From contig JAGIQG010000038.1 in the NCBI GenBank assembly GCA_024679065.1, positions 8,680,001 through 8,744,000 of the forward strand: DNA of 64,000 nt, written 5' to 3'. Positions 48,001 to 51,000 of this stretch are shown here, piece after piece. Position numbers: made by a program. Each line of letters begins with the position of its first letter. The first letter of the stretch is position 1. This DNA is from Sphyrna mokarran. Lineage: Eukaryota.

Positions 48001-51000
48001 GGAGGCAGGTCACTTTTAGCACGTGAAACAAGATGTTAATATAGATTAGTGTGCTAATAGTGTCTATTAACCTATTCCAAACCAGCTCAATCCTGTTAAG
48101 TCTCACTTGTGAACAAAACAAAAGAAGTGGATTCCATGTTGCCATTAGTATACAAGCTCTAAACACCCTGCGGACAGTTGAAATTTGTACATTATGTAGC
48201 CGACTTGCTCCAAAAGAGGCAGCAATTCTTCAATAATAGGTTACTAAAGCCAACTTCTGCAACTCAAAAGGACATGCAATATTTGGTAGTTATAACTCAT
48301 CTTCCTCCCATCCCCATTTTACAAAATAAAATGCTAATGATTGAGAAATGATTCTAGACTTTACATAAAGTACAGATTTCATACCACATCATTTTCCTTT
48401 GTATAAGGATGGGCTAACTCTAAAGTGCCCTATTCCTGCTGGGGGATAGAATATATTCCAACAACACAATCCTCCAGAGTCAAGTGCCTCACTTAAAAGT
48501 TAGCCCATTCCTGAACGTGAACTTTTGGAGGACAAGCTTTTACTTCCCAGTTCAACTAGACAGGACACTACTACATGCACACCTCAACCAAACTAAATAC
48601 CCTGATCATTCTGCTTCGCCACAGGCTCCTTTGCAGTTGAAGCAGTCTTGGGAATTGCCTTCTCAATAACAGGTGGGGCAGGAGCTTCGTGGAGGGGAGT
48701 CTCGTCGACAGCAGAAATCAATGGCGGCATCTCATCATCAATTTGGGCAGCTGAAGATGTTTCAGGGGGTGGGGCAGTGAGTTGATCAGAGGCAGAAGGA
48801 AGAGTGAAAGATGATGGAAAATCAGTGACAGGTGCTCTAGATTCTGATGATAAAGAAAGTTCAGTGGATGAAGGTGCTTCATGAGATGAATAATGAGTAA
48901 CAGGCAGAGAAGGAGGCAGCTCAGCAGCAGCATGCAGGGAAGGCTGAAGCTGTGCATTGACAGAAGGCTCAAGAGACAAAAGCAAGTCAGTACATTGAAC
49001 AACTTGGTCAGATGAGGTTAACTCAAGGGAACGTAGCTCTGAAACAGACAAGCCAGGAGACTGAAGCAGTTGAATAGTCAGAGACTTGTCAAATGCAGAT
49101 ACCTTATCACTGGGTGTGTCGAGATGCACAGAAAAGCCTACTGGGGGAGTAGACAATTGTGGTTCATCAGCGGCACTGATGGCTGAAGATGGTTCAGTGG
49201 TGCCCATGGATCCAGCAACTTGTATCTCAGTTGCCAGAGAGGCAACAACTGGAGGGTCAGCTGCCAACTTATCCACTGCAACGCCCAGAGAATTAACTGA
49301 CAGTGGCAGGTCAGGAGTATCAATGGAAGCAATTGGAGGACCATCCAGAACATCAACAGCATGGGAAGCAATGGGACTAGTGGACAATGGTGCAGCACCT
49401 GTGACATCAGCCACAGTTTGAGCTAAAAATCTGCCAGAGGGAAGAACTGCATCAGTAGCCAAAGTGAGGGTGACAGTATCAAGGGCAAATGAGGGAAGAT
49501 CATTAGTCACAGGATCAAACGAAGATTCCTTGCCTATTGTCGGCGCCTCGTCGGCAGTGTCAGCGGGCAGCGGCGCCTCGTCGCAGTGTCAGCGGGCAGC
49601 GGCGCCTCGTCCGGCAGTGTCAGCGGGCAGCGGCGCCTCGTCGGCAGTGTCAGCGGGGCCAGTGGGCAAGGGCGTTTTGGCAATAGCAATACTGTCAGGT
49701 AAAATCAGCCTGTCTGGTGTAGCAATAGTATTATCAGGAAGAGACACGGCTTCAGCAATTTTTGCAGCTTCACAAGACACGGGCTTGATGCCCATGCCAG
49801 AGGAAACTAGAGGATCAATAGATGAAGAGAATTGATGGGCAATGGCGGCAATAGCACCATCACTTGGAGAAAGCCCAGAGTCAGCTGACAAAAGCATTCC
49901 ATCAGTAATATCAACAAAAGGGCAAGGAGTAAAGGGGAACTGATGATTCACAGGTACAGCAATTAAATTAGTCAAAGGCGCAACAGGGTCAAATGAAGGT
50001 GGGCCATCAGCAGCAATAATATTAGCAGGCAATGGCAAGTTGGCTCTATCAATACTGTCAGATGAAGACAGTCCTTCTTGAATGGCAACTGGATCAACCA
50101 AAGATTGGTTAGTATCCTCCAGAGACAAGATAGCAGCTGCTTGCAGATGGCTCAAATGCTGAGTTGCTGGATGGTCAGTGGGCAAGGGCAGCTGATCAAT
50201 AGTGGGGCCATCAACTGACACTCCACTAGTGGCAGTGCAGGTAGGCAGGGCAATACTACTGGCAACAGCATCCTGCTCAGAACCTACTCCAGTACTATCA
50301 GATGGAGTTAACCAGGTGATCGAGTCAGTGGGCAAAGTCAACTGATTAACAGTGGTAACAACTGGGTCAGCAGACAAACGTACAGAAGTAGCAACCAGGT
50401 CAGAAGGTGGCAGCCTTTCAGCAGCATCAGTATAATCAGCAGGTAATGGTGGCTGATCAGTGTCAGTGCCAGCTGTAGGTGAAGCTACCTCAGTAGAAAC
50501 AGTAGGGATAGGAGAGAGAGAGCACGCCAAAGGAAGCTGGACAAGAGATTGCACAGAAGCAGATGAAAGGGATGAAGAACGATTGAAGGTGGTTTGGGAG
50601 GATGGAAGCTGAAGACCAGGGCCATGCAAATCAGTAGCAGCCGAAAGCTCCATCTTTATGGTACTGCTGGATTCATATTCAGCCTGTATGTACTCACTGG
50701 CTGAAGAAACTGATTCATGCTCAGAACAGGTTTCAATAGTAGCTGTTGAAGATAACCAAAAAAACATCAATACGAGCATAAAGAGCAGTCTGCTGTCAGT
50801 AGGATTTAAGTTGGATGAAGCTTTCATAAAATGTACTTAACTACATTAAAACAAAAGCTACACCACAGTCAACAGGCCATTTAACTTGTGGATCTATGTT
50901 GCAATTTTTGTTGCTTACAAGCAACCACCCACCCTCCCTTCTTCATTCCACCCATCAGCATATCCTCATCCTTTCTCCCTTGTGTACTTACTTAGCCAAC

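What the first reader, a model, noticed from the sequence alone, without database searches (positions are those of the whole stretch)
48601..50742. skNAC-type giant alternative exon in a probable cartilaginous fish
Seen: a 2142-nt (714-codon) low-complexity exon with phase-1 splice sites sits between NACA exon 2 and the GSGTESDSD exon. Known: mammals and zebrafish insert a very large muscle-specific exon at this position to make skNAC, a SMYD1 partner. Inferred: the skNAC switch predates the bony/cartilaginous fish split. This version is shorter and more acidic (Asp/Ser/Thr/Ala-rich), with similarity only at its C-terminal end.
Basis: partly seen in the sequence, partly recalled or inferred. 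Interest (0 to 1): 0.7.

Follow-up and report, generated by a model that had tools for sequence, protein, structure and literature searches.

The report
Shark version of muscle NACA giant exon
This is the shark counterpart of the giant optional exon that turns the housekeeping NACA gene into the long muscle form skNAC; public shark and ray gene models already include it, and in this assembly its reading frame is interrupted once.

Summary
The feature is real. On the minus strand, 50742->48601 is a 2142-nt exon with AG/GT sites and phase 1 at both ends, inside a NACA gene. It is not a clean 714-codon frame. One in-frame TGA (49589-49591) lies in 30 out-of-frame bases bounded by a +1 and a -1 indel, inside a 30-nt tandem repeat.

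The exon matches long NACA isoforms in NCBI models of 10 elasmobranch species (up to 71% identity, E 5.5e-109); the skate models are named 'muscle-specific form'. Those proteins also reveal two smaller cassette exons upstream: A (57102-56935), frame-broken as assembled, and B (53132-53043), intact.

Homology to tetrapod skNAC is detectable only in the last ~45 residues (acidic run, PPLI, KEPVxKxN tail). Profile-profile E is 2.2e-5, against 0.23-0.96 for seven control blocks. Exon A also shares an EVA(T/S)EASQTE motif with amphibians. The SMYD1-docking PXLXP motif reads PPLIS here; the critical leucine is kept.

So the skNAC-type insert most likely predates the split between cartilaginous and bony vertebrates. 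Muscle-specific use and SMYD1 binding remain untested. This is a new member of a known kind, of modest interest.

The parts
59151..59222 (-). NACA first coding exon (ATG at 59220; [23 protein letters not shown] + first base of the next codon). Its donor is CAG|GTttgt and it ends in phase 1.
   Evidence: Read. tblastn of Carcharodon P0003 aa 1-23 gives 100% identity.
56935..57102 (-). Cassette exon A, 168 nt, or 165 nt from the second AG of the tandem acceptor ccAGcAG. The conserved peptide (..DVSPSPAS..TEVATEASQTEATIETAVS..) is open only in a frame that the flanking phase-1 junctions cannot enter. In phase 1 the exon reads EER* with 6 stops and ends ..ELS.
   Evidence: P0003 aa 24-79 match at 75% identity. 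No good alternative splice-site pair enters and leaves the conserved frame in phase 1. The EVA(T/S)EASQTE motif is shared with frog and caecilian skNAC near residues 46-64.
53043..53132 (-). Cassette exon B, 90 nt, phase 1-1, intact ((A)GAGMPASEAPAVPDAVQAPASPEKPVQTA).
   Evidence: Read (ctttctAG|CT ... GCAG|GTagac). It is 53-84% identical to 9 elasmobranch proteins, at residues 25-56 or 79-115.
48601..50742 (-). Giant cassette exon C, the finding: 2142 nt, phase 1-1, acidic and low in complexity.
   Evidence: Matches 13 elasmobranch NACA long isoforms, best E 5.5e-109. Conserved along its whole length within elasmobranchs.
49541..49657 (-). 30-nt tandem array (unit LPADTADEAP, 3.9 copies) holding a +1 and a -1 indel and the in-frame TGA at 49589-49591.
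   Evidence: This is the same place where orthologues carry arrays of very different length.
48602..48745 (-). Deeply conserved tail of exon C: AAQIDDEMPPLISAVDETPLHEAPAPPVIEKAIPKTASTAKEPVAKQNDQ. It has an acidic run, then PPLIS (the counterpart of mouse PPLIP with L1952), then lysines 19, 15, 9 and 4 residues before the exon end.
   Evidence: Alignment A1, hhalign against tetrapods, BLASTP against mouse residues 1946-1995, and PMC10340688 passages.
48574..48582 (-). GTGTGCATG in the intron, 19-27 nt after the exon C donor. GTGTG overlaps TGCATG. This is a lead only, for binding of a muscle splicing factor.
   Evidence: TGCATG is at chance level over the whole window (60 found, 60.05 expected).
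47227..47312 (-). Constitutive exon (G)[28 protein letters not shown]. It starts in phase 1.
44847..44924 (-). Constitutive exon [26 protein letters not shown].
44188..44334 (-). Constitutive exon encoding the NAC domain.
   Evidence: Pfam PF01849, E 3.4e-22. Boundaries.
43680..43808 (-). Constitutive exon IEDLSQQ...EEEE. The 3' boundary is inferred from the codon count.
41949..42071 (-). Constitutive exon encoding the UBA domain.
   Evidence: Pfam PF19026, E 2.1e-12. Boundaries.
41726..41740 (-). Last coding bases, ELTM plus the stop codon.

Best explanation
The region is the elasmobranch orthologue of the skNAC-specific insert of NACA.

Shown:
- The gene is NACA of a shark.
- Three symmetric cassette exons lie between the first coding exon and the GSGTESDSD exon: A (168 nt), B (90 nt) and the giant C (2142 nt).
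- Skipping all three joins G|GG and gives the ordinary 215-residue alpha-NAC.
- Exon C is conserved over its whole length among sharks, skates and rays.
- Its size differences lie in a central array of 10-residue repeats.
- Only its last ~45 residues are recognisably homologous to tetrapod skNAC.

Inferred:
- Including the cassettes adds a long, acidic, disordered arm in front of the NAC and UBA domains.
- The arm ends in a short docking motif (acidic run + PPLI + nearby lysines). In mouse, the same motif binds the MYND domain of SMYD1 and places K1975 for methylation.
- Inclusion is probably restricted to heart and skeletal muscle, as in mouse.

The in-frame stop in exon C and the two frame breaks in exon A are most likely consensus errors of this assembly. 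Three of the four putative indels change the length of a G or C run. The exon C pair lies in a tandem repeat that may also be collapsed.
For: Identity of the gene and exon:
- P0002 (the C-terminal part of exon C) hits 13 proteins among 8000 scored candidates. All are elasmobranch NACA long isoforms. Carcharodon gives 71% identity and E 5.5e-109; the Leucoraja and Amblyraja models are named 'muscle-specific form'.
- tblastn places Carcharodon X2 collinearly on exon 2, A, B, C and five of the six constitutive exons; the last, 12-nt coding exon (ELTM + stop) was located separately.

Conservation:
- Identity per 30-residue block is 0.83 at the N end and 0.73-0.79 over the last 143 residues. It is lowest (0.30) at the broken repeat.
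- Exon C is 663-1358 residues long in seven orthologues. The difference lies in the repeat array.

Deep homology:
- hhalign of the 11-sequence tail alignment A1 against the exon ends of 37 tetrapod skNAC proteins gives Prob 76.5, E 2.2e-5 and 43 columns, running to within one residue of the exon end.
- Seven upstream control blocks give E 0.23-0.96.
- The best BLASTP segment against mouse is DDEMPPLIS.. against EDELPPLIPPE.., mouse residues 1946-1995.
- Exon A shares EVA(T/S)EASQTE with frog and caecilian at the matching N-terminal place.

Mechanism:
- Mouse L1952 within PXLXP is needed for SMYD1 binding, and K1975 is methylated (PMC10340688, passages).
- The AlphaFold2 model of the tail has mean pLDDT 58 and pTM 0.12, with only two 3-residue helical turns and no element of 4 or more residues.
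- Pfam finds no family in the exon.

Splicing: mouse exon 3 inclusion depends on Rbm24 and Rbm20 (bioRxiv 10.1101/2025.10.23.684272, passages).
Against: - As assembled, exon C has an in-frame TGA. Exon A cannot be included in frame: it has 6 stops in phase 1 and no good alternative splice sites.
- The docking motif is PPLIS, not PXLXP. The same is true in 7 of 10 orthologues; only Pristis, Hemitrygon and Mobula have PPLIP. All 37 tetrapods fit PXLXP.
- Pairwise similarity to tetrapods is weak: E 0.77 for mouse, 0.17 for caecilian and 0.44 for the frog motif segment.
- A profile of the tail searched against 1.84 billion representative proteins found no bony-vertebrate protein at E <= 0.001. It gave 4 hits: 3 elasmobranch and 1 weak hit of unknown origin.
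- No chimaera, teleost or lamprey sequence was recovered.
- No expression data were available. The name 'muscle-specific form' in NCBI models is given by similarity.
Confidence: 0.8

Rival explanations
1. The frame breaks are real. In this species the long isoform is disabled or decaying: exon C carries a premature stop and exon A is out of frame. Transcripts that include them would be truncated or degraded, and only alpha-NAC would be made.
For: There is a TGA at 49589-49591. Exon A reads EER* in the only phase its neighbours allow, and no good alternative sites exist. Two separate cassette exons are affected, while all six constitutive exons are intact.
Against: Outside the 30 shifted bases, exon C has no other stop in 713 codons. 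It is as similar to its orthologues as they are to one another. Exon A's conserved frame is still open over all 56 codons and 75% identical to Carcharodon. Both pairs of breaks cancel in length. Three of the four sit in short G or C runs, and one pair sits in a tandem repeat; these are typical places for consensus errors. Long-standing decay would have left more damage.
Confidence: 0.12
2. The exons are real and used, but the elasmobranch long isoform is not a SMYD1 partner or not muscle-restricted. It would be an acidic disordered extension of NAC with another role. The tail similarity would reflect a different or looser ligand motif.
For: PPLIS breaks the PXLXP consensus in the window and in 7 of 10 orthologues. 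Net charge is opposite to that of the mammalian insert: -9.6 vs +3.3 per 100 residues. Only ~45 of 714 residues are alignable to tetrapods. Some NCBI models start inside exon C, at MELSAATD.. in Scyliorhinus, so other transcript forms may exist.
Against: The leucine shown to be essential in mouse and the PPLI core are invariant in all 11 elasmobranch sequences and in 37 of 37 tetrapods. The acidic run before the motif and the KEPVxKxN tail after it are also kept. Amphibian inserts are equally acidic (-9.2 and -10.9 per 100) and have PPLIP, so charge does not separate the groups.
Confidence: 0.12
3. The open frame is not an exon of NACA. It would be a chance ORF, part of a transposon, or a piece of the paralogue NACAD.
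For: The sequence is of low complexity, and Pfam finds no family.
Against: The exon's two ORFs are the two longest in the window and exceed all 500 shuffles. There are canonical AG/GT sites in matching phase. The frame is conserved in 10 species, inside proteins that begin [14 protein letters not shown] and end with NAC and UBA domains. NACAD-like proteins of sharks are separate, much longer entries (P0056-P0067).
Confidence: 0.01

Closest known systems
Mouse skNAC (Naca long isoform, 2187 aa; P0017), the SMYD1-binding heart and skeletal-muscle form
   Same: - Same host gene, same insertion point after QAET, and same phase.
- The canonical alpha-NAC is restored when the insert is skipped.
- The insert is disordered and rich in P, S, A and T.
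- The homologous tail is acidic run + PPLI + ..AK.PV.K.N, ending exactly at the exon end.
- The leucine matching L1952 is conserved, and lysines lie 15-19 residues before the exon end, near the place of K1975.
   Different: - 714 residues against 1972.
- Net charge -9.6 against +3.3 per 100 residues.
- PPLIS instead of PPLIP.
- The shark insert is split into three cassette exons (A, B, C); the papers read here describe a single ~6-kb exon in mouse.
- No similarity is detectable outside the tail.
NCBI-predicted long NACA isoforms of elasmobranchs (Carcharodon carcharias X2, Scyliorhinus canicula and S. torazame, Chiloscyllium punctatum, Pristis pectinata, Rhinoraja longicauda, Leucoraja erinacea, Amblyraja radiata, Hemitrygon akajei, Mobula hypostoma)
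   Same: Direct orthologues. They have the same exons 2, A (in some isoforms), B, C and the constitutive exons. Identity is 50-71% over the C-terminal part of exon C and 64-85% over its last 145 residues.
   Different: The window's species is not among them. Its repeat array is short (about 4 units against dozens in catsharks). Its copy carries the frame breaks in A and C, which the models of other species do not show.
Amphibian skNAC (Geotrypetes seraphini P0020, Mixophyes fleayi P0052-54)
   Same: An acidic insert (-10.9 and -9.2 per 100), an N-terminal EVA(T/S)EASQTE motif like exon A, and a tail (E/D)-run + (M/L)PPLIP .. KE(P/T)V(L/V)KNDK.
   Different: About 2000-residue inserts, with PPLIP rather than PPLIS. 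Their exon structure was not examined; only proteins were available.
NACAD (NAC-alpha domain-containing protein 1), the paralogue with a long N-terminal extension
   Same: A long low-complexity region ahead of NAC and UBA domains.
   Different: It is a separate gene with separate shark entries of 2100-3300 residues (P0056-P0067). It scores lower against the skate NACA C-terminal query used (269 bits, against 385 for mouse skNAC). The window carries the NACA-type start [14 protein letters not shown].

Membership tests
skNAC (long, muscle-type isoform of NACA) | The host gene is NACA (NAC domain plus C-terminal UBA, canonical [14 protein letters not shown] start). | tested here: met
   Pfam NAC E 3.4e-22 and UBA_HYPK E 2.1e-12 on single exons. 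The canonical exons are 96-100% identical to shark NACA.
skNAC (long, muscle-type isoform of NACA) | A very large cassette exon inserted after the first coding exon (after ..QAET) and before GSGTESDSD, skippable without a frame change. | tested here: met
   Exon C (50742-48601) is phase 1-1. Exon 2 ends in phase 1 at 59151 and the next exon starts in phase 1 at 47312.
skNAC (long, muscle-type isoform of NACA) | Sequence homology of the insert to an experimentally studied skNAC (mouse). | tested here: met
   Met only for the last ~45 residues: hhalign E 2.2e-5 against 37 tetrapod exon ends, with 7 control blocks at E 0.23-0.96. The rest of the insert is not alignable.
skNAC (long, muscle-type isoform of NACA) | An uninterrupted reading frame through the insert. 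| tested here: inconclusive
   712 of 713 codons are open. One TGA lies in 30 shifted bases between a +1 and a -1 indel inside a tandem repeat. No reads were available to tell an error from a mutation.
skNAC (long, muscle-type isoform of NACA) | Inclusion restricted to heart and skeletal muscle. | not testable with these tools
   No RNA data. The only hint is GTGTGCATG 19-27 nt into the downstream intron. That these are Rbm24- and Rbfox-type motifs is recalled, not tested.
MYND-domain ligands of SMYD1 (PXLXP motif) | A P-x-L-x-P motif about 40 residues before the end of the insert. | tested here: not met
   The window has P-P-L-I-S. The leucine is 39 residues before the last residue of the exon, against 43 in mouse. 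7 of 10 orthologues have PPLIS and 3 of 10 have PPLIP. All 37 tetrapods fit PXLXP. The leucine shown to be essential in mouse is kept.
MYND-domain ligands of SMYD1 (PXLXP motif) | Physical binding to the SMYD1 MYND domain, and methylation of a nearby lysine (mouse K1975). | not testable with these tools
Lysines invariant in all 11 elasmobranch sequences lie 19 and 15 residues before the exon end, against 20 in mouse.

The most novel reading that the evidence does not exclude
The paired frame breaks in exons A and C are real. This shark would then have lost, or be losing, a working skNAC isoform while keeping alpha-NAC. It would be a natural knockout of an isoform reported as essential for sarcomere assembly in mouse and zebrafish.

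A milder and likelier novelty: the ancestral jawed-vertebrate skNAC was a strongly acidic module of three cassettes. Only an N-terminal EVA(T/S)EASQTE motif and a C-terminal acidic-PPLI tail are under deep constraint. Mammals later reversed the charge.
Probability: 0.1. Interest if true: 0.6.

Novelty: new member of a known kind. Interest (0 to 1): 0.3.

Why it matters
The result places the origin of the skNAC insert at or before the common ancestor of sharks and tetrapods. It also shows which parts have been held constant over that time: the docking tail and, against amphibians, a short N-terminal motif.

That narrows where function should be sought in a ~2000-residue disordered mammalian protein. 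The natural PPLIS/PPLIP variation among sharks, skates and rays is a ready-made test of how strict the SMYD1 MYND site is.

For genome annotation, it is a reminder that a giant repeat-bearing exon can look 'short' or broken because of assembly error. None of this is unexpected for a specialist, and the gene models already exist in public databases.

Tried and rejected
- Whole-library profile search with the 145-residue tail found only elasmobranch clusters and one weak hit of unknown origin (P0016, E 2.9e-4, 6 stretches). It gave no bony-vertebrate link, so I turned to a targeted profile-profile test.
- A word-indexed search restricted to proteins of 536-1707 residues returned 12 proteins, all elasmobranch. 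No chimaera or teleost was found. This is weak evidence of absence.
- Pairwise BLASTP against mouse, frog and caecilian is not significant on its own (E 0.17-0.77).
- BLASTP without composition correction gave many spurious low-complexity hits. I used it only for where the best segment falls.
- Pfam on both halves of the exon and on five other long ORFs of the window found no family. Rfam found none in the window.
- I looked for an internal intron that could remove the stop. The repeat holds no GT, and 30 nt is too short for an intron. Rejected.
- I looked for other splice sites that would rescue exon A. Only poor candidates exist: two AGs in the right phase (57286/57285 and 57061/57060) and one GC donor (56942/56941). 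Rejected.
- The PRIM1-like part of P0068 has no match in the window, so that neighbour gene is not here.
- TGCATG counts over the window are at chance. The copy next to exon C is a lead, not evidence.
- No complex prediction was run, because no shark SMYD1 sequence could be obtained within the rules.
- The genome-contig collection (bacteria and archaea) was not used, being irrelevant.
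Full report
**1. What is at the coordinates**

The feature is on the minus strand. Read 5'->3', it runs from 50742 to 48601. It has a pyrimidine-rich acceptor (..tttttttggttatcttcaacAG|CT) and a donor CAGG|GTattt.

The upstream NACA exon carries the ATG (59220) and ends at 59151 in the same phase. The downstream exon starts at 47312 with GG TCT GGG.., giving (G)SGTESDSD. Skipping everything in between therefore gives ..[13 protein letters not shown].., the ordinary alpha-NAC.

The coding frame has 1 stop in 713 codons. The other five frames have 18-83 stops. 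The longest open stretch (383 codons) exceeds all 500 shuffles (mean 130, maximum 297). The two stop-to-stop ORFs of the exon (415 and 331 codons) are the longest in the whole window.

There is a TGA at 49589-49591. It lies inside the only strong tandem repeat of the window: 30-nt unit, 3.9 copies, 49541-49657, 4% indels. One copy has an extra G and the next lacks a C. The 30 bases in between are out of frame and read GRGAAAR*HC. In another frame the same bases read DEAPLPADTA, the repeat unit (ORF 49534..49704). The frame is restored afterwards, which is why the total length is still a multiple of three. The window holds no N.

**2. What gene and what organism**

Single constitutive exons match Pfam NAC (E 3.4e-22) and the HYPK-type UBA domain (E 2.1e-12). 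The two halves of the giant exon match no Pfam family.

A search with the C-terminal half (P0002, longer proteins only) gave 13 hits among 8000 scored candidates. All are NCBI long isoforms of 'nascent polypeptide-associated complex subunit alpha' from sharks, skates and rays:
- Carcharodon carcharias: 71% identity, E 5.5e-109.
- Two Scyliorhinus species: 69%.
- Chiloscyllium: 60%.
- Six batoids: 50-58%.
- The Leucoraja and Amblyraja entries are named 'muscle-specific form'.

A maximum-likelihood tree of exon C puts the window inside sharks (100/100) and next to Scyliorhinus (98/98). Chiloscyllium sits on a long branch, and the tool warns about that. So this is a shark, not one of the species in the hit list, and not human. 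I did not try to trace the record.

**3. The insert is three cassette exons, not one**

tblastn of the Carcharodon X2 protein onto the window gives this layout:

| Carcharodon residues | Window coordinates | Exon | Identity |
|---|---|---|---|
| 1-23 | 59220-59152 | exon 2 | 100% |
| 24-79 | 57102-56935 | exon A | 75% |
| 83-116 | 53133-53041 | exon B | 82% |
| 112-1016 | 50755-48599 | exon C | 51-64% (two overlapping segments) |
| beyond 1016 | 47313 onward | constitutive exons | 96-100% |

Exon B (53132-53043, 90 nt) has good sites and phase 1-1 and is intact. It is present in all nine orthologous proteins that start at MPGE...

Exon A is present in Carcharodon X2 and the Amblyraja isoforms. 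It is skipped in the Chiloscyllium, Pristis, Rhinoraja, Hemitrygon and Mobula models. In the window it has a tandem acceptor (ccAGcAG) and a donor CAG|GTgcat.

Exon A does not fit the frame as assembled:
- Entered in phase 1, the only phase its neighbours allow, it reads EER* with six stops and ends ..ELS.
- The conserved peptide (..DVSPSPASRGESTALSELTP..TEVATEASQTEATIETAVS..) is open over all 56 codons in another frame.
- The first residues (A/E-E-E) and the last (E-L-S) match the orthologues in phase 1, and the middle matches in the shifted frame. So the assembly differs from an in-frame exon by one shift near each end, after GAAGAAC and in TCTCGG(G)AGC.
- No good alternative acceptor/donor pair enters and leaves the conserved frame in phase 1. 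The only candidates are two AGs at 57286/57285 and 57061/57060 and a GC donor at 56942/56941.

The exact boundaries of the constitutive exons are listed under parts. Together with exon 2 they give 215 residues.

**4. Are the frame breaks real?**

I cannot decide this without reads.

For assembly error:
- Three of the four putative indels change the length of a short G or C run.
- One pair lies in a tandem repeat.
- The rest of exon C has no other stop.
- Exon C and exon A are as similar to their orthologues as those are to one another.
- The repeat array is exactly the part whose length varies most between species. Catsharks have dozens of LPADTTDQAP-like units, Carcharodon about 15 ADAAGQAPL-like units, and Hemitrygon and Mobula none.
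- Exon C is 663-1358 residues long in seven orthologues, so 714 is within the natural range.

For a real defect: two different cassette exons are hit, while all six constitutive exons are clean.

I put the real-defect reading at roughly 0.1.

**5. Relation to bony-vertebrate skNAC**

Within elasmobranchs the exon is conserved end to end. Identity per 30-residue block is 0.83 at the N end, 0.30-0.58 in the middle, and 0.73-0.79 over the last 143 residues.

Whole-database searches did not bridge to bony vertebrates:
- A profile of the last 145 residues (alignment A1, 11 sequences) was searched against 1.84 billion representative proteins. It found 3 elasmobranch clusters and one weak hit of unknown origin (P0016, E 2.9e-4), and nothing from bony vertebrates.
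- I then fetched long NAC proteins with a skate protein as query (355 hits among 7999 candidates, 120 listed). These include mouse skNAC (P0017, 2187 aa), many mammals, a caecilian and a frog, together with NACAD paralogues.
- Two entries without a named source (P0047, P0085) were not used.

Pairwise BLASTP of P0002 against mouse, frog and caecilian is weak (E 0.77; 0.44 for the frog motif segment; 0.17). In mouse and caecilian the best segment, and in frog the second-best, is the same place: DDEMPPLIS.. against EDELPPLIPPE.. (mouse 1946-1995), i.e. the very end of the insert.

The profile-profile test is clearer. A1 against the aligned last 145 residues of 37 tetrapod inserts gives Prob 76.5, E 2.2e-5, score 36.4 and 43 columns, collinear to within one residue of the exon end. 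The seven preceding 145-residue blocks of the same tetrapod inserts give scores of 7.5-14.9 and E 0.23-0.96.

The shared pattern is an acidic run, (M/L)PPLI(P/S), about 25 loosely similar residues, and (A/G/V)K(E/Q)PV.K.N(D/N).| followed by GSGTESDSD.

Exon A also carries TEVATEASQTEAT. This recurs as PEVASEASQTE in the frog (residues 54-64) and KVATEASQTEAT in the caecilian (residues 47-58), at the matching place after exon 2. The single-pair E values are 0.035 and 0.073, so this is modest. Nothing comparable was seen at that place in mouse.

Same position, same phase, a homologous tail and a shared N-terminal motif together make common descent from the jawed-vertebrate ancestor the best reading. 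Chimaeras, teleosts and lampreys were not recovered, so the claim rests on elasmobranchs against tetrapods.

**6. How it probably works**

The mouse work comes from PMC10340688, of which I read the abstract and passages of the results, discussion and legends:
- L1952A abolishes binding and lowers methylation.
- K1975 is the methylated lysine.
- The fragment 1857-1995 lacks the alpha-NAC part.

In P0017 the motif is P1950-P-L1952-I-P1954 and the insert ends at 1995.

In the window:
- The aligned motif is P-P-L-I-S. The leucine is 39 residues before the last residue of the exon, against 43 in mouse.
- Lysines invariant in all 11 elasmobranch sequences (EK, PK) lie 19 and 15 residues before the end, against 20 for K1975.
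- The consensus PXLXP is therefore not met. 7 of 10 orthologues share PPLIS (all four sharks and the three skates), and 3 of 10 have PPLIP (Pristis, Hemitrygon, Mobula). All 37 tetrapods fit PXLXP, 36 of them as PPLIP.
- That a PPLI core can suffice for some MYND domains is my recollection, not a result here.

The tail is predicted to be disordered (pLDDT 58, pTM 0.12, no helix of four or more residues or strand).

The insert is strongly acidic in all elasmobranchs (-9.6 to -15.2 net charge per 100 residues) and in the two amphibians (-9.2 and -10.9). It is slightly basic in mouse and a marsupial (+3.3 and +2.1). 'More acidic' is therefore true against mammals, but it is probably the older state.

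My reading, marked as inference: inclusion of the cassettes hangs a long acidic disordered arm on NAC. Its conserved end recruits SMYD1 or a related MYND protein.

For regulation, mouse exon inclusion depends on Rbm24 and Rbm20 (bioRxiv 10.1101/2025.10.23.684272, passages; PMC5359592, passages). The window has GTGTGCATG 19-27 nt into the intron after exon C. TGCATG is at chance level over the window (60 found, 60.05 expected). The motif assignments are recalled, so this is only a lead.

**7. Novelty**

The exon is already present in public gene models of 10 elasmobranch species. The library holds 3 papers containing both 'skNAC' and 'shark'; judged by their titles and abstract openings in the search listing, none is about this. 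The broader search listed no paper with skNAC among its top 15. The window adds one more species and, if real, an odd pair of frame breaks. It is a new member of a known kind, of modest interest.

**8. Left out or unchecked**

Searches were made exon by exon, and full-length comparisons used database proteins.
- No shark or chimaera genome DNA, reads or RNA data were available.
Figure S3 of PMC10340688 might refine the lysine comparison.
- Sims et al. 2002 and Park et al. 2010 were seen only as reference-list entries.
- The zebrafish skNAC paper was not seen; only statements about it were. The size of the zebrafish exon is therefore unverified.
- No complex prediction was run, for lack of a shark SMYD1 sequence.

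Noticed in passing
window 56935-57102 (-): Cassette exon A of the long isoform. The conserved peptide is open only in a frame that the flanking phase-1 junctions cannot use; in phase 1 it reads EER* with 6 stops. It carries EVATEASQTE, shared with frog and caecilian skNAC.
   Followed up: yes
window 53043-53132 (-): Cassette exon B (90 nt, phase 1-1, intact). It is present in all nine orthologous proteins that start at MPGE.., so the usual long form is exon 2 + B + C.
   Followed up: yes
window 48574-48582 (-): GTGTGCATG lies 19-27 nt downstream of the exon C donor. It resembles GU-rich and UGCAUG splicing-enhancer motifs (recalled). The window-wide TGCATG count is at chance.
   Followed up: partly
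window about 50651-50653 (-), the Met of ..KMELSAATDLHG..: NCBI models of Scyliorhinus (P0004-P0006) start at the equivalent MELSAATD inside exon C, and Leucoraja P0010 starts further in. These could be truncated models or signs of an internal promoter.
   Followed up: no
window 43092-43304 (-) and 42730-42960 (-): Intronic ORF fragments read ..RLSRLGLYSLEFRRMRGDLIETL.. and ..IWNSLPSEAVEATSLNIFKARIDKFL... They look like the C-terminal end of a CR1/L2-type LINE ORF2. That resemblance is recalled and was not tested.
   Followed up: no
window 58952-59137 (+), 61406-61540 (+), 61821-61967 (-): Three copies of an interspersed repeat whose translation holds ..[10 protein letters not shown](E/A)GEF.VAN.. 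One copy overlaps the antisense strand just downstream of NACA exon 2. G-runs or poly-Pro ORFs lie nearby, and another at about 43309-43446.
   Followed up: no
window 18001-20000: GC skew of +0.30 in this 2-kb bin, far above the rest of the window. The 166-codon ORF at 18755-19255 (-) has no Pfam family.
   Followed up: no
window 1-41700 and 59300-64000: No other gene was recognised. Five long ORFs have no Pfam family, Rfam has no hit in the window, and the PRIM1-like part of P0068 has no match.
   Followed up: partly
proteins P0017, P0020, P0038, P0054 (not in the window): The skNAC insert is acidic in two amphibians and in all elasmobranchs, but slightly basic and lysine-rich in mouse and a marsupial. 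That suggests a charge reversal on the mammalian line.
   Followed up: partly
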